From contig CAJWNC010000010.1 of the NCBI GenBank assembly GCA_913044205.1, positions 1,768 through 65,767 of the forward strand: a DNA stretch of 64,000 nt, given 5' to 3'. Within the stretch, counting starts at the first letter, position 1. Every line of letters starts with the position of its first letter. The DNA comes from an uncultured Salinicola sp. (GTDB lineage Bacteria > Pseudomonadota > Gammaproteobacteria > Pseudomonadales > Halomonadaceae). The notes beneath the pieces were generated by a model that was not told the DNA's origin, made no database searches, and saw nothing but the letters and a program-made list of their open reading frames with translations. Both the position numbers and the translations under genes were made by a program. Below, one piece after another: positions 1,302 to 18,300 of this stretch.

Positions 1302-1391
1302 TTCGGTGCCGTCTCAAGATCATTGTCAACGGTAAACCCATCAGCGGGTGGCGCTGCCGCCATGGACGGCGCCGCCCGGGAGTGACTGAGC

Positions 1392-3394: not shown

Positions 3395-3396
3395 GC

Positions 3397-4203
3397 ATGA
3401 GTGTCGACAGCCGTCGCAACGGGCGCCTGGCGCTCGCTTTTCATACCCTGTTCGTGATCTTCCTGCTGGCGCCACTGGTGGTGATAATCCTGGTGGCCTT
3501 CACGCCCAAGGGCTACCTTTCGTATCCTACCGCCGGCTTCTCGCTGCGCTGGTTTCGCGAGATTCTGGAACGGCCCGACTTCATCGACGCCTTCTACCAT
3601 AGCCTCAACCTGGGCATAGTCTCGGCAACGCTGGCGACACTGTTGTCGATCCCGGCGGCGTTGGCGCTGGCGCGTTTCCGTTTCGCGGGGCGCGAGTTTC
3701 TCAATGGCCTGTTCCTCTCCCCGTTGATGATCCCGCACATCGTGCTCGGGGTGGCATTCCTGCGCTTCTTTTCCGAGATCGGTATCGGCGGCACCTTCGC
3801 CTCGCTGGTATTAGCCCACGTCATCATCGTCATGCCCTACACGCTCCGCCTGGTGCTGGCGGCGGTGATGGGGCTCGATCGCGAGACGGAGCGCGCCGCC
3901 GTTTCGCTGGGGGCGAACCCGTTCACCAGCTTTCGTCGGATCACCTTGCCGCAGATGCTGCCCGGCGTCGCAGGTGGCTGGATGCTGGCCTTCATCACCA
4001 GCTTCGACGAACTCACCATGACCGTGTTCGTCGCCTCGCCGAGCAACACCACACTGCCGGTCAAGATGTACAACTACATCGAGCAGACCATCGATCCGCT
4101 GCTGGCCTCGGTATCGACCGTGATCATCGTGCTGACCGTGGCGTTCATGCTGGTGCTGGATCGCTTCTATGGCCTGGATCGGGTGCTGAGCGGCAAGGGT
4201 TAG
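3397..4203 (+). CDS. ABC transporter permease (PotC-like)
   Basis: Start moved to the ATG at 3397 (MSVDSRRNG...), just after the upstream stop; the tracked ORF start at 3352 would overlap the previous permease; multi-pass hydrophobic protein. Confidence 0.8.
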   Translation: MSVDSRRNGRLALAFHTLFVIFLLAPLVVIILVAFTPKGYLSYPTAGFSLRWFREILERPDFIDAFYHSLNLGIVSATLATLLSIPAALALARFRFAGREFLNGLFLSPLMIPHIVLGVAFLRFFSEIGIGGTFASLVLAHVIIVMPYTLRLVLAAVMGLDRETERAAVSLGANPFTSFRRITLPQMLPGVAGGWMLAFITSFDELTMTVFVASPSNTTLPVKMYNYIEQTIDPLLASVSTVIIVLTVAFMLVLDRFYGLDRVLSGKG

Positions 4204-4298
4204 AGCAGGGGTTCGGCGTTCGCGCGTCGAGCCGGGGCGACCGCCGTTCATGGCGGTGCAATCGAATCGGTGACAGCCGTCAGGGCTTGGGATGGGTT

Positions 4299-5417
4299 AT
4301 GGCGAATTACGATTTTGCGGTGGTCGGTGGCGGTCTGGTCGGTAGCGCCATCGCCTACGGATTGTGCGGCGAGGGACATCGGGTCGTCGTGATGGACGAG
4401 GGCGACGTCGCCTATCGCGCGTCGCGGGGCAACTTCGGCCTGGTGTGGATCCAGAGCAAGGGGTTGGGCATGCCCAACTATTCGGACTGGAGCCAGAGTT
4501 CGTCACGACTGTGGCTCGAACTGGCGCCTGAGCTCAAGGAGTTGACCGGCATCGATGTCCAGCACCAGCGCAGCGGTGGCGTGCATATCTGCCACACCGA
4601 ACGGGAGTGGCTGCAGCGCCGCGAGACGATGGATCGGCTATCGCGCGAGACCGAAGGGCGGTTTCATTTCGAGATGCTCGATCACCGGGCGCTGGCGTCG
4701 CTGGTGCCCGCGATCGGGGGTGATGTCTTCGGCGCCTCGTGGACGCCAATGGATGGCCACGCCAACCCACTCTACCTGTTGCGTGCGCTGCATGCCGGAA
4801 TTCACCAGCGGGACGGTGAATATCGCCGTGGGGGCCCGGTGCGTCGTATCGCGCGGGACGGTGGGGCGTTCCGGCTCGAACGGGATGGCGAGAGTGTCCA
4901 CTGCCAACGGGTGGTGCTGGCCGCCGGTCTGGGCAACAGAGGGCTGGCGGAGCAGGTTGGACTCGAGGCACCGCTGCTGCCCAACCGCGGCGAGGTGATG
5001 ATCACCGAGCGCGTCGCACCGCTGCTGGACATCCCCACGACCTACCTGCGCCAGACTGGCGAGGGTTCACTGCAGATCGGCGACTCCCACGAGGATGTCG
5101 GCATGAACGACGGCACCCGCACCGAAGTCCTGGCGGATATCGCGCAGCGGGCGTTACGGGCCTTTCCTCGCCTGCGCGATGTGCGCATCGTCCGGAGCTG
5201 GGGAGCGTTGCGGGTGATGACGCCGGACGGCTGTCCGATCTACCAGGCCTCCGTCACTCATCCGGGAGCCTACCTGGCTTGCTGCCACAGCGGCGTGACG
5301 CTGGCGGCGGCACATGCCAAACGTCTCGCCCCCTGGATCGGCGGCGGCGAATACCCCGAGGAGATCGTCCCACTCACCGCGGAGAGATTCCATGTTCGCG
5401 TATCTGAAACGGCCTGA
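4299..5417 (+). CDS. FAD-dependent oxidoreductase (OoxB / sarcosine-oxidase-beta / HcnC-like)
   Basis: N-terminal dinucleotide fold DFAVVGGGLVGSAIAYGL directly after the ATG at 4299. Confidence 0.8.
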   Translation: MANYDFAVVGGGLVGSAIAYGLCGEGHRVVVMDEGDVAYRASRGNFGLVWIQSKGLGMPNYSDWSQSSSRLWLELAPELKELTGIDVQHQRSGGVHICHTEREWLQRRETMDRLSRETEGRFHFEMLDHRALASLVPAIGGDVFGASWTPMDGHANPLYLLRALHAGIHQRDGEYRRGGPVRRIARDGGAFRLERDGESVHCQRVVLAAGLGNRGLAEQVGLEAPLLPNRGEVMITERVAPLLDIPTTYLRQTGEGSLQIGDSHEDVGMNDGTRTEVLADIAQRALRAFPRLRDVRIVRSWGALRVMTPDGCPIYQASVTHPGAYLACCHSGVTLAAAHAKRLAPWIGGGEYPEEIVPLTAERFHVRVSETA

Positions 5418-5691
5418 AGAGGGCCGTACCGTCACCATCGAGTATGAGGGTCGAAAGCTGATCGCCAGGGCCGGAGACACGGTTGCGGCGGCACTCCTCG
5501 CGTCCGGTATCGATCGCTTCCGGTCCACGCCGGTCAGCCAGTCGCCGCGAGGCCCGTGGTGCATGATGGGCGCCTGTTTCGATTGCCTGCTGGAGATCGA
5601 TGGTGTGCCCAACCGCCAGGGATGTCAGGTTACGGTGGTCGAGGGCATGACGGTGAGAAGCCAGCAAGGCGCACGGAGGGTCTCGCCATGA
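5392..5691 (+). CDS. (2Fe-2S)-binding small subunit (HcnA / sarcosine-oxidase-alpha N-terminal-like)
   Basis: About 99 aa from MFAYLKRPEEG; Cys cluster WCMMGACFDCLLEIDG...QGCQ; start inferred from homology-like boundary; overlaps the upstream gene end by 26 nt. Confidence 0.7.
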   Translation: MFAYLKRPEEGRTVTIEYEGRKLIARAGDTVAAALLASGIDRFRSTPVSQSPRGPWCMMGACFDCLLEIDGVPNRQGCQVTVVEGMTVRSQQGARRVSP

Positions 5692-7118
5692 AGACGATTC
5701 CACTGGCGATTATCGGTGCCGGCCCGGCTGGGATTGCGGCGGCGCTAACCGCAGCACGCCATGGGCTGAAGCCGGTCGTTTTCGATGAGCAGCCCGCACC
5801 CGGCGGACAGATCTACCGGGCACTGGAATCGACGCCGCTGCGCGATCCCGAACTGCTGGGCCAGGATTACTGGCACGGACGATCGTTGATCGAGGCACTG
5901 CGACGCGAGTCGGTCGACTATCGCCCCGGCCATATGGTGTGGCAGTTGACCCGGGATGGTGAGATCGGCGTGCTCGCAGGTGACACCGCAGCGTTGATCC
6001 GGGCCGAGCGCATCGTTCTCGCCACCGGTGCCCAGGAACGGCCATTTCCCGTCCCCGGCTGGACGCTGCCCGGCGTCATGGGCGCCGGCGCCGCTCAGGT
6101 ACTGCTCAAGACCTCCGGTGTCGTCGCCCAGGCTCCCATGGTCCTGGCCGGTAGCGGGCCTCTGCTCTATCTGGTGGCGGTGCAGTACCTGCGTGCCGGG
6201 GCGAAAGTTGCCGCCATTCTCGAGACGACATCGAAGGAGAACCGGCGACTGGCCCTGGCGCATATCGGCGGGGCCATCAGAGGCTGGCGCTACCTGAAGA
6301 AAGGGGCGGAGCTACTGCGCGAACTGAAGCGCGCCGGGGTCCGTCACGAGCGTCACGTCGTCGCGTTGCGCGCCGAGGGTGATGAGACGCTGACCGGCGT
6401 GGGTTGGCGGACGGCCGACCGACCCGACGACTGGCAGCACTGCGAGGCGACCACGCTGCTGCTCCATCACGGCGTGGTGCCCAACGTCCAGATGACCAGA
6501 GCGCTTGGCGGCGCGCACGACTGGTCCGAACAGCAGCTCTGCTGGCGGCCGCGGCGGGATGCGTTCGGCCGCAGCGACATCGAGAACTTCTTCATCGCTG
6601 GTGACGGTGGCGGGATCGGAGGAGCACGCGCGGCCCAACTTCAGGGCGAGCTAGCGGCGTTGGCGGCGCTCGAATCGCTGGGCCATATCGATGGCCCCAC
6701 GCTGGCACGCGAGGCTGCGCCAGCACGCAGGAAACTCGACGCAGAGCTCGTCGTTCGTCCCTTCCTGGATGCCCTCTATCGGCCAGGCGACAGCTGGCGA
6801 CGGCCGGACGACGACGTCGTGGTCTGCCGTTGCGAGGAGATCTCCGCCGGCGAGATCCGCCGCGTCGCCAAGCTCGGCTGTGCGGGCCCCAATCAGATGA
6901 AGTCTTTCACCCGCTGCGGCATGGGGCCCTGTCAGGGACGCTTGTGTGGTCTGACGGTGAGCGAGATCCTCGCTGCGGAAAACGACCAGAGTCTGGAGCA
7001 GACCGGCTACTACCGCCTGCGTCCGCCTTTCAAGCCCATCACTTTGGGGCAACTGGCCAGCGCGGCGGGGGGTGCCCCGGAAGCGCCGGCGCGGAACGAG
7101 ACCGAGACCGCTTCGTGA
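5688..7118 (+). CDS. FAD/NAD(P)-binding oxidoreductase, OoxA/HcnB-like, with C-terminal BFD-like [2Fe-2S] motif
   Basis: Start at MKTIPLAIIGAGPAGIAAAL (ATGA overlap with the upstream stop at 5688-5691); C-terminal VVCRCEEISAGEI...CGMGPCQGRLCG. Confidence 0.8.
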   Translation: MKTIPLAIIGAGPAGIAAALTAARHGLKPVVFDEQPAPGGQIYRALESTPLRDPELLGQDYWHGRSLIEALRRESVDYRPGHMVWQLTRDGEIGVLAGDTAALIRAERIVLATGAQERPFPVPGWTLPGVMGAGAAQVLLKTSGVVAQAPMVLAGSGPLLYLVAVQYLRAGAKVAAILETTSKENRRLALAHIGGAIRGWRYLKKGAELLRELKRAGVRHERHVVALRAEGDETLTGVGWRTADRPDDWQHCEATTLLLHHGVVPNVQMTRALGGAHDWSEQQLCWRPRRDAFGRSDIENFFIAGDGGGIGGARAAQLQGELAALAALESLGHIDGPTLAREAAPARRKLDAELVVRPFLDALYRPGDSWRRPDDDVVVCRCEEISAGEIRRVAKLGCAGPNQMKSFTRCGMGPCQGRLCGLTVSEILAAENDQSLEQTGYYRLRPPFKPITLGQLASAAGGAPEAPARNETETAS

Positions 7119-8266
7119 AGCCCACGGCGCTAGTCATCGGGGGCGGTCTACATGGCGCGAGCGCGGCGACGCAACTGGCGCGTAGCGGCTTCCGGGTGAC
7201 CGTGGTCGAGAAGAACTACGCCGGTCGGCACGCCTCCGGCGTCAATGCCGGGGGCGTGAGGCGGCTGGGCCGGCATCCCGCCGAAATCCCGCTGGCGGTC
7301 GCTGCCCTCGCGCGCTGGCAGCGACTCGAAACGCTGATCGGCGACGATGGCGGATTCCATCCCTGCGGCCAGATCAAGGTGGCCGAGAACGACGAGGACA
7401 TGGCCAGGTTGGTGTCGCGTGCGGCCGAGGTCCGCGAGCTCGGCTTCGATCATGAAATCATCCTCTCCCGGGAAGAGCTGCGCCGACGCGTGCCGGCAGT
7501 GGCACCGCACTGCGTGGGCGCGCTGGCCTGCGATGGCGATGGTGCGGCCAATCCCTACCGCACGCTGACCGCTTGGCGTCGACAGTCACAGCGCGAAGGT
7601 GCGATATGGCGGGAAGGCGTGCAGGTGACCCGCGTGGACCGGGTCCCCGGTGGCGGCTGGCGACTCTCCACCGATCATCCCGATCTGCCCGGCCTGGATG
7701 CCGATTGGCTGATCAACTGCGCCGGCGGCTGGGCGGGTGGGTTGTGTGGGGCACTCGACGAGTGCGTGGCGATGCAGCCCCAGGCGTTGATGCTGACGAT
7801 CACCGAGCGCGTGACGCCGTTTCTCGGCCCGGTGATCGGCAGCGCATCGCGCGCGCTGTCATTCAAGCAGATGGACAACGGCAGCGTGATGATCGGCGGC
7901 GGCATCGCGGGATGCATCGATACCGGCGGCGAGCATGCAGACGTGCGCCTGGCGGGCCTGGCCCAGAACGTGCAGACCGCGCTTGGGCTGTTCCCGTTCA
8001 TGCGCGACGTTCGCGTGGTGCGCACCTGGGCGGGTATCGAGGGGGTGACCGGGGATGGCATTCCCGTGCTGGGCCTGAGCTGGCGACATCCGAGGCTGAT
8101 CCACTCCTTCGGCTACTCGGCCCACGGCTTCCAGTTGTCGGCCATTACCGGCGAAATCGTCCGGGACCTCGCGCTGGAGCGGGAACCCGCGTTGCCGATC
8201 GCGCCGTTCGACATACGACGTTTCGATTCGTCCTCCGCGGCTGCGCGGGCGAGTCATACACACTGA
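7115..8266 (+). CDS. FAD-dependent oxidoreductase (second OoxB/HcnC-like subunit)
   Basis: GTG at 7115 forms a GTGA overlap with the upstream stop; VKPTALVIGGGLHGASAATQLA dinucleotide fold follows immediately. The tracked ORF start at 6830 lies inside the previous gene. Confidence 0.75.
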   Translation: MKPTALVIGGGLHGASAATQLARSGFRVTVVEKNYAGRHASGVNAGGVRRLGRHPAEIPLAVAALARWQRLETLIGDDGGFHPCGQIKVAENDEDMARLVSRAAEVRELGFDHEIILSREELRRRVPAVAPHCVGALACDGDGAANPYRTLTAWRRQSQREGAIWREGVQVTRVDRVPGGGWRLSTDHPDLPGLDADWLINCAGGWAGGLCGALDECVAMQPQALMLTITERVTPFLGPVIGSASRALSFKQMDNGSVMIGGGIAGCIDTGGEHADVRLAGLAQNVQTALGLFPFMRDVRVVRTWAGIEGVTGDGIPVLGLSWRHPRLIHSFGYSAHGFQLSAITGEIVRDLALEREPALPIAPFDIRRFDSSSAAARASHTH

Positions 8267-8314
8267 CGGCATCGGCCGTCGACTTTTCGACAGCGATCGA
8301 CAGGAGCGTTCTTC

Positions 8315-8665
8315 ATGAGCGATATCAAGCGTCATATTCCGACACCCATCATGCACCGTGTGGTCGAGGCCAACGGTTTTCTGTTCCTGGGAGGAATCGT
8401 GGCCGAGGACCGGTCTCAGGACATGGCAGGGCAGACTCGCCAGATTCTGGACAAGATCGATGCCTACCTCGCCGAGGCGGGTTCCGACAAGCACAAGATC
8501 GTCGCGGCGACGCTCTATGCGACCGACCTAGGGCAGAAGGATGCCATGAACGATGTCTGGAAGGTCTGGCTGGATCCGGCGCCATTGCCGGCGCGGGCAA
8601 CCCTGGGCGTGAGCGATCTGGCTCCGGGTGCGCTACTGGAGGTGGTCGTCACTGCGGTCAAGTGA
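8315..8665 (+). CDS. RidA/YjgF family reactive-intermediate (enamine/imine) deaminase
   Basis: 116-aa protein with typical RidA length and C-terminal motif PARATLGVSDLAPGALLEVVVTA. Confidence 0.8.
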   Translation: MSDIKRHIPTPIMHRVVEANGFLFLGGIVAEDRSQDMAGQTRQILDKIDAYLAEAGSDKHKIVAATLYATDLGQKDAMNDVWKVWLDPAPLPARATLGVSDLAPGALLEVVVTAVK

Positions 8666-9424
8666 TCGGCCGTCATCCCCGGGGCTTTGCATCGGGGTGG
8701 CAGCCCCCGTTCGGGCCGCATCCACCAGCGCCCGGATCAACCGTTGTTGCGAGCGGCTGAAGAGCAGGAACTCCGGATGCCACTGCACGCCAATGAGAAA
8801 GGGGTGGCGGTCGCTCTCGATCGCCTGCACCAGGTCGTCGCGGTCATGGGCGACCACCTTCAGCCCGTCCCCCGGCCGATCCACCGCTTGGTGGTGAAGG
8901 CTGTTCACGTGGCAGTAGCGGCGGTTGAGAATGTCGGCCAGCTGGCTGAATGGCTCGATCTCGATGCGCTTGCGCGGCAGCACCATGCGCCGGTTCCTAA
9001 TGTGGCGATAGGTCGTCTGGATGTCCTCGATCAGGCTGCCACCGCAGTGGATGTTGATGATCTGGGCGCCGCGACAGATGCCCAGGATCGGTATCCGCTC
9101 CGGTAGATAGCGGGCCAGCAGTTCGAGTTCGAGCTCGTCGCGGGCGGGGTCGATGCGAACGTCGAGTTGCATCTCGCCGCCGTAGCGCTGGGCACCGATA
9201 TCGTCGCCCCCGCCGATGATCAGGCCGTCCACCGGCCGTCGCAGCGGACGCGCGGGCGAGATCCGCAGCGGCCTGCCTCCGGCGCGCCAGACCGAGATCC
9301 AGTCGCACCACCAGGCCAGGAAGCTCTTGTGATCCGAGGTGGTGATACCGATCAGCGGCCGGCTCGTCCTGCGTGTCGATCCGGATCGCCGTTTACGTTC
9401 GGATTGGGCTTGCGTCGAATCCAT
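8633..9424 (-). CDS. Class I glutamine amidotransferase-like / peptidase C26 (gamma-glutamyl hydrolase, PuuD-like)
   Basis: Nucleophile elbow ILGICRGAQ and GVQWHPE His-Glu motif; start at MDSTQ (ATG 9424) forms an ATGA overlap with the stop of the upstream amidoligase gene. Confidence 0.8.
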   Translation of the reverse strand: MDSTQAQSERKRRSGSTRRTSRPLIGITTSDHKSFLAWWCDWISVWRAGGRPLRISPARPLRRPVDGLIIGGGDDIGAQRYGGEMQLDVRIDPARDELELELLARYLPERIPILGICRGAQIINIHCGGSLIEDIQTTYRHIRNRRMVLPRKRIEIEPFSQLADILNRRYCHVNSLHHQAVDRPGDGLKVVAHDRDDLVQAIESDRHPFLIGVQWHPEFLLFSRSQQRLIRALVDAARTGAATPMQSPGDDGRSLDRSDDHLQ

Positions 9425-10428
9425 CAGTGGCGCATCCAGTGGCGCAGGGAGTCGAGCCAGCGGCTCAGGGTCGGCTGGGTGAGGTGCGCGCGGTAGGCGG
9501 CGCTGCGTTCCGCCAGGCGGTCCGGATCGGCGGCCAGGCGTTCGACTTCGGCCCAGCGATTCCATTCGACGCTCACGCCCCACTCCGGGTCCGAGAGCGC
9601 GGCGTTGGGGAGGCGGTAATGATAGGTCGGCCGGGGCTTGACCAGCGTCTCCCGGAGCAGCGCGTTGGGGTGGTCCGGCATCAGCCAGGCGAACAGCGGC
9701 AGCAGATCCAGCTCACGGTTGCGGGTCGGGTTGGCAACCAGGTAGTCGTCGATCAGCGCCTGCAGCGTGGGAGCGTAGTCCGGCGCCAGTATCCGGCGGG
9801 TGTAGTCGCTGTGGAACGGGCGTGTATGGGGCAGCATGTCCCGCGTCACGTCGACGACGATCTCGTCGCGCAGCCAGTCGGCGAGTATCAGATAGGCTCG
9901 CAGGTAGGCCACCACGCTCTCGACGTCGGGAGAGGGGATTTCCGGGTTGAGGTGGAGACCGAAGCCGTACAGCAGGCTGGCATCGGTACCCTCCGCCCCG
10001 TGCCGGCGCAGCGCCGCGAACAGCTCGTCCAGGCGCTCCAGTTCATGCCAGGGAATCGGCGGGCAGACGATCTCCGTCGGCACCAGGCCCGCCACCATGT
10101 CGCCCAGCCACTCCCGGGTGCGGCTGTGCAGGCTGGCACGCAGATGCTCGCCGATGCCCGGCGGCTGGCCGTCGATGGCGCGGGCACGGTCGAGCAAGCG
10201 CTCGTCCGGATGGACGTACTTGCTGTCCAGTTCGACATGGAAGACGCCCCATGGCGTCCCGGTCACCTGAAGGCGATGCGCGCTATGCTGCTGGACGCGA
10301 CCGCCGAACGTCATCTCGACCAGGCGTGCCGCCTGAATGGGGCCGATGCCGGCGAACTCGATCTCGACACCGACCCGGCGCGGCTGGTCGTCGGCGTTGG
10401 TGGTGTACGTTGGCGCGGTGAGAGACAC
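9424..10428 (-). CDS. Amidoligase_2 family protein (glutamine-synthetase/GCS2-like ATP-dependent amide ligase, unknown substrate)
   Basis: N-terminal RRVGVEIEF motif and overall resemblance to the putative amidoligase family as I remember it. Start set at GTG 10428, preceded by AAGGAG with a 6-nt spacer; the tracked start 10488 is also a GTG but has no SD. Confidence 0.6.
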   Translation of the reverse strand: MSLTAPTYTTNADDQPRRVGVEIEFAGIGPIQAARLVEMTFGGRVQQHSAHRLQVTGTPWGVFHVELDSKYVHPDERLLDRARAIDGQPPGIGEHLRASLHSRTREWLGDMVAGLVPTEIVCPPIPWHELERLDELFAALRRHGAEGTDASLLYGFGLHLNPEIPSPDVESVVAYLRAYLILADWLRDEIVVDVTRDMLPHTRPFHSDYTRRILAPDYAPTLQALIDDYLVANPTRNRELDLLPLFAWLMPDHPNALLRETLVKPRPTYHYRLPNAALSDPEWGVSVEWNRWAEVERLAADPDRLAERSAAYRAHLTQPTLSRWLDSLRHWMRH

Positions 10429-10554
10429 GATGGGCTCCTTGCCGATTGCTGTCGCCTGGATGAGCGTCGAATGGGCGCCGGAAGACACGGCAACGGCGTT
10501 GGCAGAGCGGTGATTCGCTCCGCTAAGCCTAGCAGTCCTGGCAGGGGATGACAG

Positions 10555-11397
10555 TCAGCCCCAGTGGGTCAGGATGACGCCGCCGAGAATCAGTCCGCCG
10601 GCGAGCAGCCGCTCGCGGCGCAACGGCTCCTTCAACCAGATCACGCCGATGGCGATGGCGAACAGCACGCTGGTCTCGCGCAAGGCCGCGACCAGCGCGA
10701 TCGGCGCCTGGGTCATGGCCCAGATGGTGATGCCGTAGGCGCCGAGGGAGAGCGCGCCGCCGATCAGACCGACCCGCCAGTGGCGGGTCAACTCGGGCAG
10801 CGTCCGAGCGCCGCGCATGGCCACCAGCGCCAGCAGCATGCCGAAGCCGTCGAGCAGGAACAGCCAGATCACGTAGCCGATCGCATCGCCGTTGGCGCGT
10901 GCGCCGCTGCCGTCGGCCAGGGTGTAGCCGGCGATGAAGGCGGAGGTCGTCAGGGCATTGACCAGCGAGGCGCGTTCCAGGCGCGGCCCCTTGCCGCCCC
11001 GGAAGGCCATGCACAGGATGCCGAGGACCAGCACCGCGATCCCCGCATAGCCGATCCACGAGGGGTGCTCGCTGAGTGCGAAGACGCCGATCAGCGTCAC
11101 CAGCAGCGGTGCGCAACCCCGGGCGATGGGGTAGATCTGGCCGAGGTCGCCGACCCGGTAGGCCCGGGCCAGGAACACGTTGTAGCCGATATGCAGAACC
11201 GCCGATACCGCCAGCCACGGCCAGGCTTCCGCCCGCGGCAGCGGCACGAAGGCGACCCCGGCGAGGGCGATCACAGCGCAGGCGGCCTGAATCAGCGAGA
11301 TGCTCAGCAACCGGTCCAGGCCCACCTTGACCAGCGCATTCCAGCTGGCGTGCATCAGGGCACCGGCCAGCACGGCGAGGAAGACGGGCGTCGTCAA
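10555..11397 (-). CDS. EamA/DMT family transporter
   Basis: 280 aa, about ten hydrophobic segments, two-EamA-repeat style sequence; 126 bp upstream of the proposed amidoligase start (66 bp from the tracked ORF start), same strand. Confidence 0.8.
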   Translation of the reverse strand: MTTPVFLAVLAGALMHASWNALVKVGLDRLLSISLIQAACAVIALAGVAFVPLPRAEAWPWLAVSAVLHIGYNVFLARAYRVGDLGQIYPIARGCAPLLVTLIGVFALSEHPSWIGYAGIAVLVLGILCMAFRGGKGPRLERASLVNALTTSAFIAGYTLADGSGARANGDAIGYVIWLFLLDGFGMLLALVAMRGARTLPELTRHWRVGLIGGALSLGAYGITIWAMTQAPIALVAALRETSVLFAIAIGVIWLKEPLRRERLLAGGLILGGVILTHWG

Positions 11398-11568
11398 CGC
11401 AAATCCTTTTCACTGCGGGTATTCGAGGGCAATGACGCTACGGCTGTCATTCAATTGTCATATCTTGCCACAGGCTTCGGGTGATCGTCGCCCTGCGCCA
11501 CGGTAGGATGGCACGACCATGATCGGTGCCTCATCGATCCCCGTCGCCCCGTGAATCCCGGAGAACGG

Positions 11569-14500
11569 ATGTTCAGCGTCCTGCATGCCAATCATCTTGA
11601 AGATCTGCACGACCTGGCATTGGCGCTGATCAAGCGCCATCGACTGCCGCCACTGACCCCGGAGACTTTCCTGGTGCAGTCCAACGGCATGGCCCAGTGG
11701 CTGCGCCTGTCGCTGGCCGAAGCCGACGGGATCGCCGCCTCGGTGGATTTCCCGCTGCCCTCGAGCTTCGTCTGGCGTGCCTACCGCGCGGTGCTCGAAC
11801 AGGCCGGAGGGGAGGACGAGGGGCAGTCGATTCCGCTGCACTCGCCGTTCGACAAGCGGCCGCTGGCGTGGCGTATCTTTCGGCTGCTGGAGAGCGCGGT
11901 CGCCGCGGAACCGGTCGTATTCGCGCCGCTCGCCCACTATCTGGGCGCCGGGCCGGCTGGCGCGATGCCAGACGCTGCGGGGGGCGAGTCCGGTGGCGAG
12001 GTCCCTGCGATGACTGGCGTGCAGCGCAGGGCGGCCGAGCAGGCGGAGCGCAAGCGCTGGCAACTGGCGGTCCGCCTGGCGGATCTGTTCGACCAGTATC
12101 TCAACTATCGCCCGGACTGGCTGGCAGCGTGGGAGGCGGGGGAGGAGTCGCCTCGGGACCTGCCCGTCGACCAGCGCTGGCAGCCGGCGCTATGGCGGGC
12201 GCTGATCGATGACGCCGGGCCCGACGAGCGGGCGTTTCACCGCGCCAACCTGCATGGTCGTTTCCTGCACGCCGCCAGGCGACTGCAGAGCTGCCCCAGG
12301 GGGTTGCCGCCGAGGCTCTTCGTCTTCGGCATCTCGGCGCTGCCGTCGCAGACGCTGGAGGCGCTGCATGCGCTCTCCGGGGTCATCGATGTGTTTCTGA
12401 TGATCACCAACCCCTGCCGCCACTACTGGGGCGACATCGTCTCCGACCGCGAGGCGATCAAGCGCGCCGGTCGGCTCTCCGCCGAGGCGGTGGCACGCCA
12501 GCAGGCCCGCCACCCCGAAGCGCCCTGGCTCGAAACGCTGGACGAGGAGGCGCTGCACCTTCAGGCCAACCCGCTGTTGGCCGCCTGGGGCGCCCAGGGC
12601 CGCGACTTCATCGTCGGTCTCTACGAGTTCGAGAGCCAGGATGGCGGTTTCGACGTCGAGACCGATCTCTTTCGCGACCCGGCGGCGGACGCTGAATCGG
12701 CTGCCGAACGAGCGCCCCTGCTCAACCAGTTGCAGCAGGACATCCTCGATCTCAGGCATCCGGGGGAGCGCACCCGGGAGAGCGGTAAACGCAAGATCGC
12801 GGCGGACGACGCCTCGCTGTCGCTGTTCAGCGTGCATTCGCCGCTGCGCGAAGTGGAAGTGCTGCACGACCGGCTGCTGGCGGCCTTCGAGGAGGCCAGT
12901 GCCGAGGGGGCGCCGCTGCGGCCGCGTGACATCCTGGTGATGGTGCCGGAGATCGACGTCTACGCCCCCTATATCGAAGCGGTTTTCGGCCGGCTGCCCA
13001 CGGACGATCCGCGCCATATCCCCTTCACCATCGCCGACCAGGTTGCCAGTGAAGCGCATCCGATGATGGTGCTGATCCTGTCGCTACTGGAACTGCCCGA
13101 GCGGCGGCTGGGGGTGAGCGAACTGCTCGATGCGCTCGATGTGCCGGCGTTTCGGGCCCGTTTCGCCATCGACGAAGCCGAACTGCCGCGCCTGCGGCGG
13201 TGGCTGGCGGACAGCGGCGTGCGCTGGGGACTCTCGGGCGCGCATCGCCAGGCGCTCGGGTTTCCGGCGCTGCACGAGAACAGCTGGGCGTTCGGGCTCG
13301 AACGCATGCTGCTGGGGTATTCCACCGGCGCTTTGCCCTCCACCGGCCCGATGCCGTCGGGGCGATCCTCTGGGGCCGTCCACCGGCCCGATGCCGCCGG
13401 GCCGCAAGTACCGAACGGGACGTCTGCCGACAGCGCGTGGCAGTTCGACGCCATCGTGCCCTACGACGAGGTGGGCGGGTTGGAGGCGGATCTGGCGGGG
13501 CGGCTCGCCGAGCTGATGCAGGTGCTGGCCGCCCAGTGCGAGGCCCTGAGCGAAGCTGGCACGCCAGCGGGCTGGCTGATGCGACTGCGATCGCTGATGG
13601 AGGCGCTGTTCGCGCCGACGGCACTGGACGAGCACGATGTGCTGGCGCGGGTGGACCAGGCGCTGGGCCGCTGGCAGGAGAGCTGCGAGCTGGCCTCGTT
13701 CTCGCAGCCGATCGGCCTGGCGGTGGTGCGCGATGCGCTCAAGGCCGAGCTCGACGACGGCGGCCTGGCCCAGCGCTTCCTCGCCGGCAAGGTCAATTTC
13801 GCCACGTTGATGCCGATGCGTGCCATTCCGTTCCGGCAGGTCTACCTGCTGGGGATGAACGACGGCGCCTATCCCCGAACCCGCCAGCCCCAGGACTTCG
13901 ACCTGATGGCGCAGCGCCCGCGGCCGGGGGATCGCTCGCGCCGCGACGACGATCGCTACCTGCTGCTCGAGGCGCTGCTCTCCGCCCGCGAACGGTTGAC
14001 GCTGTCGTGGGTCGGCTTCGACCAGCGCGACAACACGCCGCGACCGCCCTCGGTGCTGATCGGCGAACTGCTCGATACCCTCGAGCAGGGCTGGCGTCCG
14101 GCCGGCCCTCCGGGGGATGGCCCGGCGGTGGACGACGAGACGGCGCTGGCGGCACGGCTGATCGAGACCCACCCGCTGCAACCGTTTTCGCGTCGCTACT
14201 TCCAGGCCGACGATCCACGCTACACCTTCGATGCCAGTTGGGCGCCATTGCACGACACCCGCGACGATGCCGAACGGGACACCGGGCAGAACGTCGCCGA
14301 GCCGGCCCCGCCCCCGTCGCCGGACGAAGCGCTGGCGCTGGCCGACCTGCAGCGGCTGCTGCGCCGCCCCTGGAGCGTCTACCTCGGCCGCCTGGGAGTG
14401 CGTTTCCAGGAGGCCGAAGTTCCCGACGAGGATAGCGAGCCTTTCGTCCTCGATGCGCTGGAGGACCACACCGTCAAGCGCGAACTGCTGGACGCCGGGC

Positions 14501-15333
14501 GCCGCGGCGAACCGCTGGTGCAGATGGCGGACCGGCTGCGTCTGGCGGGGCGCCTGCCGGCTGCCGGTTTCGGCCTGGCCACCATCGAGCCGACGCTGAA
14601 ACGGCTGGAGACGCAACTGGAGACCTGGCGACGATTGACCGCGACCGCCAGCGAGCGGGAGCCGCCACTGCTGCGTTTCGAGGCAGCGGCTGCCGACGAC
14701 GTGCCGTCGCTGGCGCTGGAGGCGCGCGTCGACGGACTGTTCACGGACGAGCAGGGCGGCTGCCGATTGATGACGCTGGAAACCAGCCATTTCGGTCACT
14801 TCAAGCCCGAGGGCGACGGCCCGTGGAAGAAGCTCGGCAAGCCGCATCGACTCCATGCCGGCTATCTGCGCTGGCTGCTGGTCAATGCGGCTGGCGAGGC
14901 GTCGTGTCACTGGACGGCGATCTTCGAGGATCGCTGTCTCGATTTCCCGCCGCTGGAACGGCTCGAGGCGAGGCGGCGACTGACAGCGTGGTTGGCGAGC
15001 TGGTGGCGGGCCTGGTGCAAGCCGCTGCCGGCCTCGGGGGAGCTGGTCCGCACGCTGTGGGGCCAGTGCCGTGCCGAGACGCTGCAAGCCCTGGCCGCGG
15101 GAGAGGCGCCCGAACCGGCGTTGCGGGAGCGGCTTGCCGCGGACTACGAGGCCGGCAACTACCAAGTCGCGGCGCTGGTCCAGCGAGAGGGCGGCCTGGG
15201 CCAGCTCTGGCGTGACTTCGAGGCGTTCGAGGCGGCCGGTGGCGTGGCCGAGAGCGTCCGCCACTACCAGCCGCTGCTGGAGGCGATGCGCCAGGCGTCG
15301 CAGCGCATTCATCTTCCGAGGGGCGACTCATGA
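11569..15333 (+). CDS. recC: Exodeoxyribonuclease V gamma subunit RecC
   Basis: N-terminus MFSVLHANHLEDL...LVQSNGMAQWLRLSLAE...DFPLPSSFVW parallels E. coli RecC; ATG 11569 is preceded by GGAGAA; stop overlaps the recB start. Confidence 0.93.
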   Translation: MFSVLHANHLEDLHDLALALIKRHRLPPLTPETFLVQSNGMAQWLRLSLAEADGIAASVDFPLPSSFVWRAYRAVLEQAGGEDEGQSIPLHSPFDKRPLAWRIFRLLESAVAAEPVVFAPLAHYLGAGPAGAMPDAAGGESGGEVPAMTGVQRRAAEQAERKRWQLAVRLADLFDQYLNYRPDWLAAWEAGEESPRDLPVDQRWQPALWRALIDDAGPDERAFHRANLHGRFLHAARRLQSCPRGLPPRLFVFGISALPSQTLEALHALSGVIDVFLMITNPCRHYWGDIVSDREAIKRAGRLSAEAVARQQARHPEAPWLETLDEEALHLQANPLLAAWGAQGRDFIVGLYEFESQDGGFDVETDLFRDPAADAESAAERAPLLNQLQQDILDLRHPGERTRESGKRKIAADDASLSLFSVHSPLREVEVLHDRLLAAFEEASAEGAPLRPRDILVMVPEIDVYAPYIEAVFGRLPTDDPRHIPFTIADQVASEAHPMMVLILSLLELPERRLGVSELLDALDVPAFRARFAIDEAELPRLRRWLADSGVRWGLSGAHRQALGFPALHENSWAFGLERMLLGYSTGALPSTGPMPSGRSSGAVHRPDAAGPQVPNGTSADSAWQFDAIVPYDEVGGLEADLAGRLAELMQVLAAQCEALSEAGTPAGWLMRLRSLMEALFAPTALDEHDVLARVDQALGRWQESCELASFSQPIGLAVVRDALKAELDDGGLAQRFLAGKVNFATLMPMRAIPFRQVYLLGMNDGAYPRTRQPQDFDLMAQRPRPGDRSRRDDDRYLLLEALLSARERLTLSWVGFDQRDNTPRPPSVLIGELLDTLEQGWRPAGPPGDGPAVDDETALAARLIETHPLQPFSRRYFQADDPRYTFDASWAPLHDTRDDAERDTGQNVAEPAPPPSPDEALALADLQRLLRRPWSVYLGRLGVRFQEAEVPDEDSEPFVLDALEDHTVKRELLDAGRRGEPLVQMADRLRLAGRLPAAGFGLATIEPTLKRLETQLETWRRLTATASEREPPLLRFEAAAADDVPSLALEARVDGLFTDEQGGCRLMTLETSHFGHFKPEGDGPWKKLGKPHRLHAGYLRWLLVNAAGEASCHWTAIFEDRCLDFPPLERLEARRRLTAWLASWWRAWCKPLPASGELVRTLWGQCRAETLQALAAGEAPEPALRERLAADYEAGNYQVAALVQREGGLGQLWRDFEAFEAAGGVAESVRHYQPLLEAMRQASQRIHLPRGDS

Positions 15334-18300
15334 CCGACAGCCGCGACCGTGCCGATGCCGCGATGGACGAGGAGGTCGTCCCGCTGGCGCTCGACGGCCT
15401 GCCGTTGACCGGACGGCATCTGATCGAGGCCAGTGCCGGCACCGGCAAGACCTTCACCCTGGCGGCACTCTACGTTCGCCTGGTGCTGGGGCCGCTACCC
15501 GGGCGCGAGGCGGTGGATTTCCCGCGTCCGTTGACGCCGCCGGAGATTCTGGTGGTGACCTTCACCGAGGCCGCCACCGCCGAGCTTCGCGGGCGTATCC
15601 GCGCGCGCCTCAAGCAGGCGCGTGACTGGCTGCTGGCCCGCCCCGAGGACCGCGCCGACCCGGTGCTGGCGACCCTGCTGGCACCGCTTGCGGCTACCGG
15701 AGAGACCGCCTGCCGCGGCGGGGCCAAGCGGCTGGACCAGGCCGCGCGACTGATGGACGAGGCGGCGATCTTCACCATTCACGGCTTCTGCCAGCGGATG
15801 CTGACCCGCCACGCCTTCGACGCCGGAGCGCGGTTCTCCGCCGAACTGCTGCAGGATGGACAGACGCTGCTGGCCCGGACGGTGGAGGATTACTGGCGGT
15901 GCGAGTTCTATCCGCTCGACGAGCGCTGGCAGCGCCAGATCCGCTCGCGCTGGAGCGGGCCGGAGGCCCTGACCACCGCGTTGCGGCCGTTGCTGAAGGA
16001 TGGCGAGCCACAGCCGCTGTGGGTGGATGGCGTGGCGGTGACTGCGCCCACATCGCTGGCGGCGTTGCTCGGCGGTTTCGAGCGTGAAATGGAGAAACGC
16101 CAGGAGATCGAGTCCGCCCTGCGCGGGCACTGGGATGGGGAGGCGATCCGCCAGACGCTGCAGGGGGCGTTCGACGCCGACGCGCTGAAGAAGAACAGCT
16201 ACAAGCCGGAAGAGCTCGAAACCCGTCTCGCCGCCTTCCAGAGCTGGCTCGAGCAGGGCAGTTTCGACAAGGCGGAGGATGTCACCGACAGCAGCGGCCG
16301 TTTCTGGCTCAGCCAGGAGAAGCTGGCGGGCGCGACGAAGAAGAATGCGGCGGTGCCCGAGCATCCGTTCTTCGGCTGGCTGGATCGGCTCGCCGAGGCC
16401 GGCACGCCATTCGATGCGATTGCCTCTCAGGTGCTGGTGCACGCCCGTGACCGGATCGCGATAGCGTTCGCGGAGGAGAAGCGGCGCCGCGGGCTGTGGG
16501 AGTTCTCGGATCTGCTCAACGATCTCGATGCCGCCCTGGCGCCGGGCCGGAACGGCGGCGATGCCGCGCTGCGGCTGGCGGCGCGTATCCGCCAGGAACT
16601 GCCGGTGGCGCTGATCGACGAGTTCCAGGATACCGATCCGGTCCAGTACCGGATCTTCTCGCAGGTCTATCGGGCCCCGGAGAGCGACCCCACCGCCACC
16701 GCGCTGCTGATGATCGGCGATCCCAAGCAGGCGATCTACGCCTTTCGCGGTGCCGACATCCACACCTACCTGCGCGCGCGTCGGGCCACGCCGAGCCGCT
16801 TCACGCTGATGCGCAACTTCCGTTCGACACAGACCATGGTCGAGGCCACCAACGCGCTGTTCCAGCGTCACCCCCAGCCGTTCGGCAGCGCCGAGATACC
16901 GTTCGTGGCGATCGACTCCCAGCCCAAGCCGACGCGGCTGGTCGACCGAGACGGTGGGCCGGTGTCCGCGCTGGGAGTGTGGTGGCCGGACACCGAGCGC
17001 TACAGCCAGGGCGATTATCAGGCGACGATGGCGTCGGCGACCCGGGCCGAGGTCCAGCGGTTGCTGGAGGGCGAGTGGCGCTTCGCCGGCGCCACCGGCG
17101 AGCGTGCGGTCCAGCCGGCCGATATCGCCATCCTGGTACGTAACGGGCCGGAGGCACTCAAGGTGCGACGGGCGCTCGCCGACGGCGGGATCCGTAGCGT
17201 CTACCTCAGCGAGAAGTCGAGCGTGTTCGACACCCCGCAGGCGTTCGAGCTGTTGCAGCTGTTCGAGGCGGTGGCCCAGCCGCGCCAGGATGCCCGGCTC
17301 AAGGCGGCACTGGCGACCCAGTTGCTCAACGATTCGCCGCGGGCCCTGGAAGCGCTGCTGGCCGACGAGCTGGCGTGGGAGCGCGAAGTCGAGCGCTTCG
17401 GCGACTACCATCGCCAGTGGCAACGGCGCGGCGTACTGCCCATGTTGCGCAGGGTGATGCAGGATTTCCGCGTCGCCGAACGGCTGGCCCAGCGCGTCGA
17501 CGGCGAGCGGGCGTTGACCGATCTGCTCCATCTCGGTGAACTGGCCCAGAACGCCCAGCAGCGGCTCGATGGCGAACAGGCGCTGCTGCGCTGGTGGCAC
17601 CGGGCGCTGCAGGAGGGCGTCGCGACGTTGGACAGCCAGGCGCTCAGCCAGCGTCTCGAGAGCGACGAGGATCTGGTCCGGGTGGTCACCGTGCACAAGT
17701 CCAAGGGACTCGAGTATCCCATCGTGTTGCTGCCGTTCGTCTGCTCGCATCGGCCGGCGGAGCCGGATCGCCGGACCGGACTGCTGGCGGTGAGGCCTCC
17801 CGGCGACGAAGGCAGCGTGCTGGTGGCCTCGCCTGACGACGATCACCAGCGCGAGGCCGATCTGGCGCGACTCGACGAGGATGTCCGTCTGCTCTACGTC
17901 GCGCTGACCCGTGCCGCCTACGCTTGTCGACTGGGTGTCGCCCATGTCGGTCGCGGGCGGGGCCAGGGCGGCTGCCTGCACGAGACCGCGCTGGGCCGGT
18001 TGCTGGGCAGCGCGCAGACGGACGATGGTGCGGCGCTGCTGGATCGGCTGCGGCAGGGCCAGCGCGACGGCTGGCTGGCGGTCGAGCCGCTGCCCGAACC
18101 GCCGGATCACCGGCTGCGAGCGGCGATGGCCGCCCCGGAGACCAAACCGGCGCGGATCTTCGACGGCGAGATCGACGATGACTGGTGGATCGCCTCCTAC
18201 ACCTCGCTGATAGCGGATGCCCGTCGCACCGTGGGCGAGGAGGAGGAGGCGTGGAACGGCGACGACACCGGCGATGGTGGGGGCGAGGATGCGGTCGCGG

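What the first reader, a model, noticed from the sequence alone, without database searches (positions are those of the whole stretch)
8633..11397. EamA exporter / Amidoligase_2 / GATase-like thiol peptidase operon of unknown product
Three co-directional minus-strand genes are present: a DMT/EamA transporter, then an amidoligase-family protein 126 bp downstream at its proposed start (66 bp from the tracked ORF start; RRVGVEIEF motif), then a class I GATase/peptidase C26 (ICRGAQ, WHPE) whose ATG overlaps the amidoligase stop (ATGA at 9422-9426). From memory of comparative-genomics work on amidoligases, this family is found in proteobacteria next to a GATase-like thiol peptidase. It is predicted to make and trim a gamma-glutamyl-type amide or peptide conjugate, but no substrate has been established. 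The linked exporter suggests a secreted small amide metabolite.
Basis: partly seen in the sequence, partly recalled or inferred. Interest (0 to 1): 0.65.

Follow-up and report, generated by a model that had tools for sequence, protein, structure and literature searches.

The report
Orphan amide ligase–hydrolase gene pair
A Salinicola genome carries a widely conserved, translationally coupled pair of genes (an ATP-type amide ligase and a PuuD-like thiol hydrolase) whose substrate is still unknown. The neighbouring EamA transporter looks like a genus-specific neighbour, not a part of the system.

Summary
Three minus-strand genes are present: EamA (10555-11397), Amidoligase_2 (9424-10428, PF12224 E=2.6e-58) and Peptidase_C26/GATase (8633-9424, E=3e-46). 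One detail is corrected: the junction is TGATG (1-nt overlap), not ATGA.

The ligase and C26 genes form a real two-gene module.
- C26 lies directly downstream in 78 of 87 informative loci.
- Stop and start codons overlap in about 70% of pairs.
- The two proteins diverge in step (r=0.97).
- Natural ligase-C26 fusions exist.
- The Cys-His-Glu triad is invariant.

It is not the PuuD of a putrescine pathway. The PuuD model scores 70 bits against a cut-off of 266, and the window holds no PuuA/C/E/P/R.

The "exporter operon" reading is weak.
- This EamA is adjacent only in Salinicola.
- Its 86%-identical Halomonas elongata orthologue sits among purine-catabolism-type genes.
- A conserved promoter-like element lies in the EamA-ligase spacer.

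However, other lineages attach different membrane proteins to the pair: fused DedA/VTT twice, an EntS-like MFS, and a CPBP gene.

Most likely mechanism (inferred): the ligase makes a gamma-glutamyl-type amide and the hydrolase breaks it. A glutamine-dependent amidotransferase is the main rival. This is a known predicted system with no known substrate, so interest is moderate to low.

The parts
9424..10428 (-). Amidoligase_2 family protein (334 aa, GTG start). Predicted ATP-dependent carboxylate-amine ligase.
   Evidence: PF12224 E=2.6e-58. Sixteen invariant residues in a 48-sequence alignment reaching down to 33% identity: R17 G20 E22 E24 G61 D68 P117 E119 N161 R196 Y229 R236 D241 R266 H270 R272. 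AF2 model has pLDDT 81.6 and pTM 0.80. It matches predicted phage amidoligase structures at E about 3e-4. The weak top PDB matches are all GS/GCL-type ligases. The same gene call appears in public annotation.
8633..9424 (-). PuuD-like Peptidase_C26 / class I GATase-fold thiol hydrolase (263 aa). Triad: Cys117 (9076-9074), His216 (8779-8777), Glu218 (8773-8771).
   Evidence: PF07722 E=3e-46. Best PDB sequence matches are Lin1909 (3fij, 1.3e-28) and E. coli PuuD (6vtv, 6e-18). It is 30% identical to PuuD. C117 is invariant in all 76 distinct partner sequences; H216 and E218 are invariant in the 73 that cover those columns. The first 22 residues are not conserved in relatives.
9422..9426 (-). TGATG stop/start overlap (translational coupling of ligase and hydrolase).
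   Evidence: Read directly from the sequence. Overlapping stop/start occurs in 53 of 75 distinct pairs: 35 with 4 nt, 14 with 1 nt, 4 with 8 nt (with the two mis-scored window-type pairs counted as 1-nt).
10435..10440 (-). AAGGAG ribosome-binding site, 6 nt before the GTG start of the ligase gene.
   Evidence: GGAG is invariant and the AAGGAG hexamer is kept in 9 of the 10 Salinicola species (CAGGAG in S. rhizosphaerae).
10526..10554 (-). Conserved promoter-like element directly after the EamA stop: CTGTCA (10554-10549), a 17-nt spacer with TG at 10534-10533, then TAGGCT (10531-10526). It has the shape of an extended -10 promoter.
   Evidence: The core GAnTGCTAnGnT is kept in all 10 Salinicola species although the flanking spacer diverges and carries indels. 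The motif is found at this position only in Salinicola loci. The generic promoter scan missed it because the -10 hexamer matches only 3 of 6. Function is inferred, not shown.
10555..11397 (-). EamA/DMT transporter (280 aa, TTG start). A genus-specific upstream neighbour, probably not part of the module.
   Evidence: PF00892 E=3e-18. The best NCBIfam model, phn_DUF6, scores 165 bits against a cut-off of 288. It is adjacent to the pair only in Salinicola. Orthologues of 86% and 58% identity lie in unrelated contexts.

Best explanation
The unit is a self-contained, two-gene cytoplasmic module: ligase plus hydrolase.

The Amidoligase_2 protein is taken to be an ATP-dependent carboxylate-amine ligase of the glutamine-synthetase / glutamate-cysteine-ligase type. 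I infer that it joins the gamma-carboxyl of glutamate to a small, still unidentified amine or amino acid. The PuuD-like C26 enzyme, with an intact Cys-His-Glu triad, then hydrolyses a gamma-glutamyl amide bond. Its substrate is either the same conjugate (turnover or homeostasis, as in glutathionylspermidine synthetase/amidase) or a derivative made by unlinked enzymes (a transient gamma-glutamyl handle, as in the Puu, Ipu, Atd and Egt pathways).

The two proteins are made in fixed proportion through overlapping stop and start codons, and they probably act together.

In Salinicola the pair appears to have its own promoter in the spacer after EamA. EamA is a neighbouring gene with a separate role.

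Shown here: family membership, conservation of the pair, coupling, fusions and the intact catalytic triad. Inferred: ATP use, glutamate as the acyl donor, the gamma-glutamyl nature of the bond and the make-then-break logic.
For: - Family matches are far above the cut-offs.
- C26 lies directly downstream and co-directional in 78 of 87 loci with at least 800 bp of downstream sequence. That count is 76 from ORF clustering plus L043 and L087 from tblastn. One further locus has it divergent. No third gene is conserved.
- Stop/start overlap occurs in 53 of 75 pairs. Identity of the two proteins to the window proteins correlates at r=0.97, n=86.
- Natural ligase-C26 fusions occur in two lineages less than 50% identical to each other. 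One of them is seen on four contigs from independent ENA and JGI samples.
- The triad is invariant in 76 partner sequences. The partner carries the PuuD-type 'CRG' motif in 65 of 76, and scores much better on Peptidase_C26 (158 bits) than on the generic GATase model (57 bits).
- The named enzymes among its closest matches in NCBIfam and the PDB are gamma-glutamyl amide hydrolases: PuuD and gamma-glutamyl-CDP-amidate hydrolase. The best PDB match, Lin1909, carries no functional name.
- The top four PDB fold matches of the ligase model, though weak, are GS type III, plant GCL, YbdK and the 1-naphthylamine gamma-glutamyl ligase. From established knowledge, all of these activate the glutamate gamma-carboxyl.
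Against: - No biochemical datum exists for any member.
- The link of the ligase to the GS/GCL superfamily is not significant in my own tests: Foldseek E 0.1-0.3, hhalign against YbdK with probability 0.14%, and no secondary Pfam hit in 48 members.
- A ligase and a hydrolase acting on the same bond would form a futile cycle unless they are regulated.
- Fusion and tight coupling are just as typical of glutamine amidotransferases.
- About 10% of loci lack C26. Several plasmid copies are solitary and one lineage has a GST in its place.
Confidence: 0.45

Rival explanations
1. The pair is a heteromeric, glutamine-dependent amidotransferase. The C26/GATase subunit hydrolyses glutamine. The ammonia passes to the ligase subunit, which has activated some carboxylate with ATP. 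The product is a carboxamide, for example an amide-type solute or an amidated envelope precursor, by analogy with MurT/GatD.
For: - The partner has the class I GATase fold with an intact triad.
- The strict one-to-one pairing, overlapping codons and natural fusions are the usual signature of synthetase/GATase pairs.
- Phage Amidoligase_2 genes sit beside a glutamine amidotransferase of a different fold, class II PF13522 (PMC3890496, PMC10580990). The property the two partner types share is hydrolysis of a glutamine or gamma-glutamyl amide.
- Solitary ligases could simply use free ammonia.
Against: - The partner belongs to the PuuD/C26 branch. It scores 158 bits on C26 against 57 bits on the generic GATase model, and has the CRG motif. 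The members of that branch that I know to be characterised are hydrolases, not ammonia donors (own knowledge).
- I know of no amidotransferase with a GS/GCL-like synthetase subunit.
- The GST that replaces C26 in one lineage does not fit this model.
Confidence: 0.2
2. One reading: EamA, ligase and peptidase form one operon that makes, trims and exports a secreted small amide metabolite.
For: - The three genes are co-directional and no terminator-like site lies between them.
- EamA stays next to the pair in all 10 Salinicola species, even where the upstream flank differs (L008 and L010).
- One 250-nt contig from a run guessed to be RNA spans 10337-10586, across the spacer.
- An EntS-like efflux-type MFS lies 32 bp upstream of the pair in Qingshengfaniella.
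Against: - This EamA is adjacent only within one genus.
- Its 86%-identical H. elongata orthologue and a 58% Metapseudomonas orthologue lie in unrelated contexts.
- A conserved promoter-like element lies in the spacer.
- In most Halomonadaceae loci examined (Chromohalobacter, Halomonas, Vreelandella, Litchfieldella) the pair has no co-directional transporter next to it.
- EamA/DMT proteins include both importers and exporters (own knowledge).
- The RNA evidence is a single low-depth contig of uncertain library type.
Confidence: 0.1
3. The ligase modifies a peptide, a protein or a membrane/envelope component, for example by adding an amino acid to a side chain or a lipid head group. The C26 enzyme removes the modification.
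For: - DedA/VTT membrane domains are fused to the ligase in two lineages. Each fusion is followed by C26 and was seen on independent contigs.
- In one of these lineages the neighbours are a YegS-like lipid kinase, a CDP-alcohol phosphatidyltransferase and an MscS channel.
- The solitary Azospirillum copy lies close to UppP and DedA.
- A CPBP/Rce1-like intramembrane protease gene overlaps the start of one ligase-C26 fusion.
- A paper cites Iyer et al. 2009 as proposing cell-wall modification for the phage versions (PMC10580990).
Against: - No precursor-peptide gene or target gene is conserved next to the pair.
- Most copies have no membrane partner.
- The lipid-related neighbours come from single lineages.
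Confidence: 0.1

Closest known systems
Amidoligase_2 (PF12224) with a GATase-like thiol peptidase: the association predicted by comparative genomics (Iyer, Abhiman, Burroughs & Aravind 2009, Mol Biosyst 5:1636; Pfam family text, recalled from memory)
   Same: The domain pair, the gene order and the proteobacterial distribution are the same. The window copy is a plain member.
   Different: Nothing essential differs. New here are the counts (78 of 87 loci), the fusions, the DedA/VTT and other membrane partners, and the result that the Salinicola EamA is not part of the module.
E. coli PuuA/PuuD putrescine utilisation. The Ipu (isopropylamine) and Atd/Npa (aniline, 1-naphthylamine) gamma-glutamylation pathways are analogous.
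   Same: A GS-type ligase makes a gamma-glutamyl amine and a C26 hydrolase later removes the glutamyl group. The window C26 is 30% identical to PuuD with the same triad. The 1-naphthylamine GS (8wwu) is among the top fold matches of the ligase model.
   Different: The ligase is not a PuuA/GlnA-type protein; there is no Gln-synt hit. No oxidase, aldehyde dehydrogenase or regulator of such a pathway is linked. The PuuD equivalog cut-off is not reached.
EgtA/EgtC of mycobacterial ergothioneine synthesis (own knowledge)
   Same: A GCL-type ligase installs a gamma-glutamyl group and a GATase-type amidohydrolase encoded in the same operon removes it.
   Different: EgtC is a class II (Ntn) GATase and EgtA belongs to a different ligase family. 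The egtB, egtD and egtE genes are absent here.
Glutathionylspermidine synthetase/amidase Gss (own knowledge)
   Same: An ATP-dependent amide ligase and a thiol amidase for the same bond are fused in one protein. This shows that a make-and-break pair, even when fused, can be a regulated buffer and need not be a futile cycle.
   Different: The folds differ: ATP-grasp plus CHAP there, against Amidoligase_2 plus C26 here.
MurT/GatD lipid II amidotransferase (own knowledge)
   Same: A carboxylate-activating ligase homologue is paired with a class I GATase. This is the model for the amidotransferase rival.
   Different: MurT has the Mur-ligase fold and GatD is a CobB/CobQ-type GATase. No cell-wall genes are linked here.
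Phage Amidoligase_2 modules (LUZ24-like and OM43 phages)
   Same: The Pfam family is the same. The model matches predicted phage amidoligase structures at E about 3e-4. These phage genes also lie beside a glutamine amidotransferase.
   Different: The phage partner is a class II GATase (PF13522), accompanied by ATP-grasp and COOH-NH2_lig genes. Sequence identity is about 10-14%. No phage or viral contig encodes a relative of the window protein.

Membership tests
Amidoligase_2 (PF12224) | Match to the family HMM above the gathering score | tested here: met
   198 bits against a cut-off of 22, covering profile positions 2-243 of 245.
Amidoligase_2 (PF12224) | Conserved acidic/basic core, including the N-terminal RxxGxExE strand | tested here: met
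   R17 G20 E22 E24 E119 N161 R196 R236 D241 R266 H270 R272 are invariant in 48 sequences reaching down to 33% identity.
Amidoligase_2 (PF12224) | Neighbourhood with a GATase-like thiol peptidase in proteobacteria | tested here: met
   78 of 87 loci, plus fusions.
GS/GCL-like carboxylate-amine ligase superfamily | Shared fold or detectable homology with GS, GCL or YbdK | tested here: inconclusive
   The top four Foldseek PDB matches are GS III, GCL, YbdK and naphthylamine GS, but only at E 0.1-0.3 and TM 0.17-0.32. hhalign against YbdK gives probability 0.14%. There is no PDB sequence hit.
GS/GCL-like carboxylate-amine ligase superfamily | ATP-dependent formation of an acyl-phosphate and an amide bond | not testable with these tools
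   This needs an enzyme assay.
Peptidase_C26 / PuuD-like gamma-glutamyl hydrolases | HMM match and a Cys-His-Glu triad | tested here: met
   PF07722 at 158 bits. C117 is invariant in all 76 partners; H216 and E218 in the 73 that cover those columns.
PuuD (gamma-glutamyl-GABA hydrolase of the Puu pathway) | Reaches the NCBIfam equivalog cut-off, and puuA/B/C/E/P/R genes are present | tested here: not met
   70.5 bits against 266. No PuuA, PuuC, PuuE, PuuP or PuuR homologue in the window. Only weak similarity (21-25% identity) of PuuB to the DAO-family oxidases of the neighbouring cluster.
Class I GATase subunit of an amidotransferase | Glutaminase activity coupled to a partner synthetase through ammonia transfer | not testable with these tools
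   The triad, adjacency and fusions are compatible with this. Neither the activity nor a channel can be assessed here.
Three-gene operon EamA-ligase-C26 | EamA adjacency conserved beyond close relatives | tested here: not met
   Adjacent only in Salinicola. Orthologues lie elsewhere in H. elongata and Metapseudomonas.
Three-gene operon EamA-ligase-C26 | Co-transcription of the three genes | tested here: inconclusive
   No terminator-like site and one spanning contig from a run of uncertain type speak for it. A conserved promoter-like element in the spacer speaks against it.
Anti-phage defence systems (PADLOC) | Match to any known defence protein model | tested here: not met
   No hit for any of the three proteins.

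The most novel reading that the evidence does not exclude
The pair is a new type of glutamine-dependent amidotransferase. A GS/GCL-like Amidoligase_2 subunit activates a carboxylate, and a PuuD-like class I GATase subunit supplies ammonia. In marine and halophilic bacteria this would make a carboxamide solute or an amidated envelope component. In some lineages it would be tethered to the membrane through a fused DedA/VTT domain.
Probability: 0.15. Interest if true: 0.7.

Novelty: new member of a known kind. Interest (0 to 1): 0.35.

Why it matters
PF12224 is an orphan enzyme family: no member has a known substrate or a solved structure. The subfamily found here comprises about 740 clusters at 50% identity. 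It is common across Halomonadaceae genera and occurs in marine Alphaproteobacteria.

Finding the substrate would assign a function to thousands of genes. It might also reveal a new gamma-glutamyl (or amide) metabolite cycle in halophiles that are used industrially for ectoine and PHA production.

This analysis narrows the experiment to two genes. It removes EamA from the core and names tractable hosts: Halomonas elongata, Chromohalobacter salexigens and Dinoroseobacter shibae. It also defines one clean biochemical test that separates the two leading mechanisms.

Tried and rejected
- PuuD of a putrescine pathway: rejected.
- Functional link to the adjacent opine/sarcosine-oxidase-like cluster with its ABC transporter and RidA (267-8665, plus strand): rejected. 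That cluster lies next to the pair only in the window, L001 and L008.
- Phage origin or defence system: no PHROG hit for the ligase, no PADLOC hit and no viral or phage relatives.
- Riboswitch or structured leader in the 126-bp spacer: no Rfam hit and fold z = -0.49. The one hairpin is not kept by compensatory changes.
- Generic promoter/terminator scan: nothing found. The conserved element emerged only from the ten-species alignment.
- Sequence link to GCS2/YbdK: not significant.
- Profile search of the PDB: only chance-level hits to CntL.
- Literature: no paper deals with this pair. Iyer 2009 is not held. The 'putative amidoligases' of the argolaphos paper belong to other families.
- Salt-stress RNA-seq supplements for C. 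salexigens and H. elongata: the gene names do not occur in them, so no expression data could be extracted.
- ExaC next to the pair in Rhodobacteraceae SC52: it is part of a PQQ-ethanol oxidation cluster and is not a Puu-like step.
- Folding a ligase-C26 fusion to inspect the domain interface: not attempted. The tool returns no coordinates, so it could not separate the two mechanisms.


Full report
**What is there.** The window comes from a Salinicola (Halomonadaceae). The ligase is 97% identical to that of S. corii, and the identical contig is on record from a Tara Oceans metagenome assembly and a GenBank assembly. Three genes lie on the minus strand.
- An EamA/DMT transporter at 10555-11397.
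- An Amidoligase_2 protein at 9424-10428.
- A Peptidase_C26/GATase protein at 8633-9424.

All three match their Pfam families far above the cut-offs.

The start at 10428 is supported in three ways.
- It has an AAGGAG ribosome-binding site.
- That codon is GTG or TTG in all ten Salinicola species.
- The stretch upstream carries indels that break the longer ORF.

One detail is corrected. The ligase stop and the C26 start form TGATG (9426-9422), a one-base overlap, not ATGA.

**The real unit is the pair.** I collected 103 related loci from genomes and metagenomes.
- Of the 87 loci with at least 800 bp downstream of the ligase, 78 have the C26 gene directly downstream on the same strand. One more has it divergent.
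- Clustering all neighbouring ORFs found no third conserved gene. This holds overall and among the 58 loci whose ligase is under 53% identical to the window's.
- Stop and start codons overlap in 53 of 75 distinct pairs.
- Identities of the two proteins to the window proteins correlate at r=0.97, so they are inherited as a unit.
- Natural ligase-C26 fusions exist in two divergent lineages. One was seen on four contigs from independent samples, which argues against a sequencing artefact.
- The Cys117-His216-Glu218 triad is invariant in the 76 partner sequences.

The subfamily has about 740 clusters at 50% identity. It is common across Halomonadaceae genera. It also occurs on chromids or plasmids of marine and saline Alphaproteobacteria.

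**Not a PuuD.**
- The C26 protein is 30% identical to E. coli PuuD, but it scores 70.5 bits against the equivalog cut-off of 266.
- The window has no PuuA, PuuC, PuuE, PuuP or PuuR homologue.
- The convergent neighbouring cluster is next to the pair in only three genomes. It holds a Pot-like ABC transporter, two DAO oxidases, Fer2_4, a Pyr_redox_2/SO_alpha_A3 protein and RidA.

**EamA.** The exporter link is the weakest part of the finding.
- An EamA like this one is adjacent only in Salinicola.
- Its closest orthologue outside the genus, 86% identical in Halomonas elongata, sits among xanthine dehydrogenase, an amidohydrolase, adenosine deaminase and formate-tetrahydrofolate ligase genes.
- A 58% orthologue in Metapseudomonas resinovorans is also elsewhere.
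- Aligning the EamA-ligase spacer across ten species shows a conserved element directly after the EamA stop. It reads CTGTCA, then 17 nt with a TG, then TAGGCT (10554-10526), which has the form of an extended -10 promoter. The rest of the spacer drifts and takes a large (roughly 200-bp) insertion in S. socius.
- I take this to mean that the pair has its own promoter.
- Read-through from EamA is not excluded. There is no terminator-like site. One 250-nt contig from a run of uncertain type spans the spacer.

**A membrane theme elsewhere.** Other lineages attach unrelated membrane proteins to the pair.
- DedA/VTT domains are fused to the N-terminus of the ligase in two lineages. Each fusion is followed by C26 and each was seen on independent contigs.
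- An EntS-like MFS lies 32 bp upstream in Qingshengfaniella.
- A CPBP/Rce1-like gene overlaps the start of one ligase-C26 fusion.
- An MscK-like channel gene lies upstream on the opposite strand (divergent) in 26 loci, including the two Halomonas loci with public gene calls.

A connection with transport or the membrane is therefore plausible for the family. Its direction and meaning are unknown.

**Mechanism.** No member has been characterised or solved.
- The AF2 model is good: pLDDT 81.6 and pTM 0.80.
- It matches predicted phage amidoligase structures at E about 3e-4.
- It matches GS type III, plant GCL, YbdK and the 1-naphthylamine gamma-glutamyl ligase only weakly, at E 0.1-0.3.
- Sequence profiles do not reach YbdK.

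The invariant ExE, E119, N161 and the several arginines fit a metal- and ATP-dependent ligase.

The partner belongs to the PuuD/C26 branch. The members of that branch that I know to be characterised hydrolyse gamma-glutamyl amides. The simplest reading is therefore this: the ligase makes a gamma-glutamyl-type amide and the hydrolase cleaves it or a derivative of it. The Puu, Ipu, Atd and Egt pathways work this way, and so does the fused synthetase/amidase Gss. I give this reading 0.45.

The main rival is a glutamine-dependent amidotransferase, at 0.2.
- For it: tight coupling and fusions are typical of such enzymes. Phage Amidoligase_2 genes pair with a class II GATase.
- Against it: the partner is of the PuuD type, and a GST replaces it in one lineage.

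The exporter-operon model and a peptide, protein or envelope-modification model each get about 0.1.

**Verdict.** The pair is the association already predicted by comparative genomics and recorded in the Pfam family text. The window copy is an ordinary member of it.

What is new here:
- the quantified conservation of the pair;
- the fusions;
- the variable membrane partners;
- the removal of EamA from the core;
- a clear biochemical test between the two leading mechanisms.

Interest is moderate to low: this is a real orphan enzyme pair, but not a surprise.

Noticed in passing
window 267-8665 (+): A catabolic cluster on the plus strand: a Pot-like ABC transporter (substrate-binding protein, ATPase with TOBE_2, two permeases), then DAO, Fer2_4, Pyr_redox_2/SO_alpha_A3, a second DAO and RidA. 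The architecture resembles opine oxidase, HCN synthase or heteromeric sarcosine oxidase. It is convergent with the pair and present beside it only in the window, S. corii and S. rhizosphaerae.
   Followed up: partly
window 8633-8665: The 3' ends of the convergent RidA gene (8315-8665, plus strand) and the C26 gene (8633-9424, minus strand) overlap by 33 bp. The public gene calls show the same overlap.
   Followed up: no
window 10484-10499 (-): A second conserved spacer block, CGCTCTGCCAACGCCG, lies in the presumed 5' leader of the ligase gene. It is kept as sequence, not as a hairpin (no compensatory changes). It may be a regulator binding site.
   Followed up: partly
L006 about 7700-7960 (S. 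socius): A large (roughly 200-bp), comparatively AT-rich insertion lies in the EamA-ligase spacer. It is absent from the other nine Salinicola species and may be a small mobile or repeat element.
   Followed up: no
window 10555-11397 (-) versus L122: The EamA protein is 86% identical to its Halomonas elongata orthologue, whereas the ligase next to it is only about 58% identical between the same genera. This suggests either horizontal transfer of the transporter or much stronger constraint on it.
   Followed up: partly
L115 7001-9450; L116 3956-6405; L120 7001-9225: DedA/VTT-Amidoligase_2 fusion proteins are followed by C26 in two lineages. In one of them (L115 and L116; a member of the same protein cluster is annotated as a Deltaproteobacteria MAG) the neighbours are a LysR regulator, a YegS-like lipid kinase, an MscS channel and a CDP-alcohol phosphatidyltransferase.
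   Followed up: partly
L107 7040-11557 (Azospirillum argentinense Az39 plasmid p2): A solitary amidoligase with no C26 is followed by a response regulator and a HAMP histidine kinase, then an undecaprenyl-diphosphate phosphatase and a DedA protein. This recalls the DedA fusions.
   Followed up: no
L052, L069, L097, L101, L102: A subgroup without C26 has a conserved setting: a divergent class V aminotransferase or cysteine-desulfurase-like gene upstream, and a different (2A78-type) EamA transporter convergent downstream.
   Followed up: partly
L056 2052-2654; L058 11026-11628: In one lineage a glutathione S-transferase gene occupies the position directly downstream of the ligase, in place of C26.
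   Followed up: partly
L106 2207-4351 (D. shibae plasmid pDSHI02): Here the pair is preceded, 63 bp upstream on the same strand, by a dihydroneopterin aldolase paralogue. A homocysteine S-methyltransferase gene is nearby. This is a single case of a folate or pterin context. It is worth noting because C26 also includes folyl-poly-gamma-glutamate hydrolase.
   Followed up: no
window 11551-21352 (+): recC, recB and recD lie divergent from EamA, followed by a creatininase-family gene (21349-22137). Further on are a GTP cyclohydrolase II gene, uvrC, a Na+/H+ exchanger and a large FAD-linked oxidase. This is an ordinary chromosomal context.
   Followed up: partly
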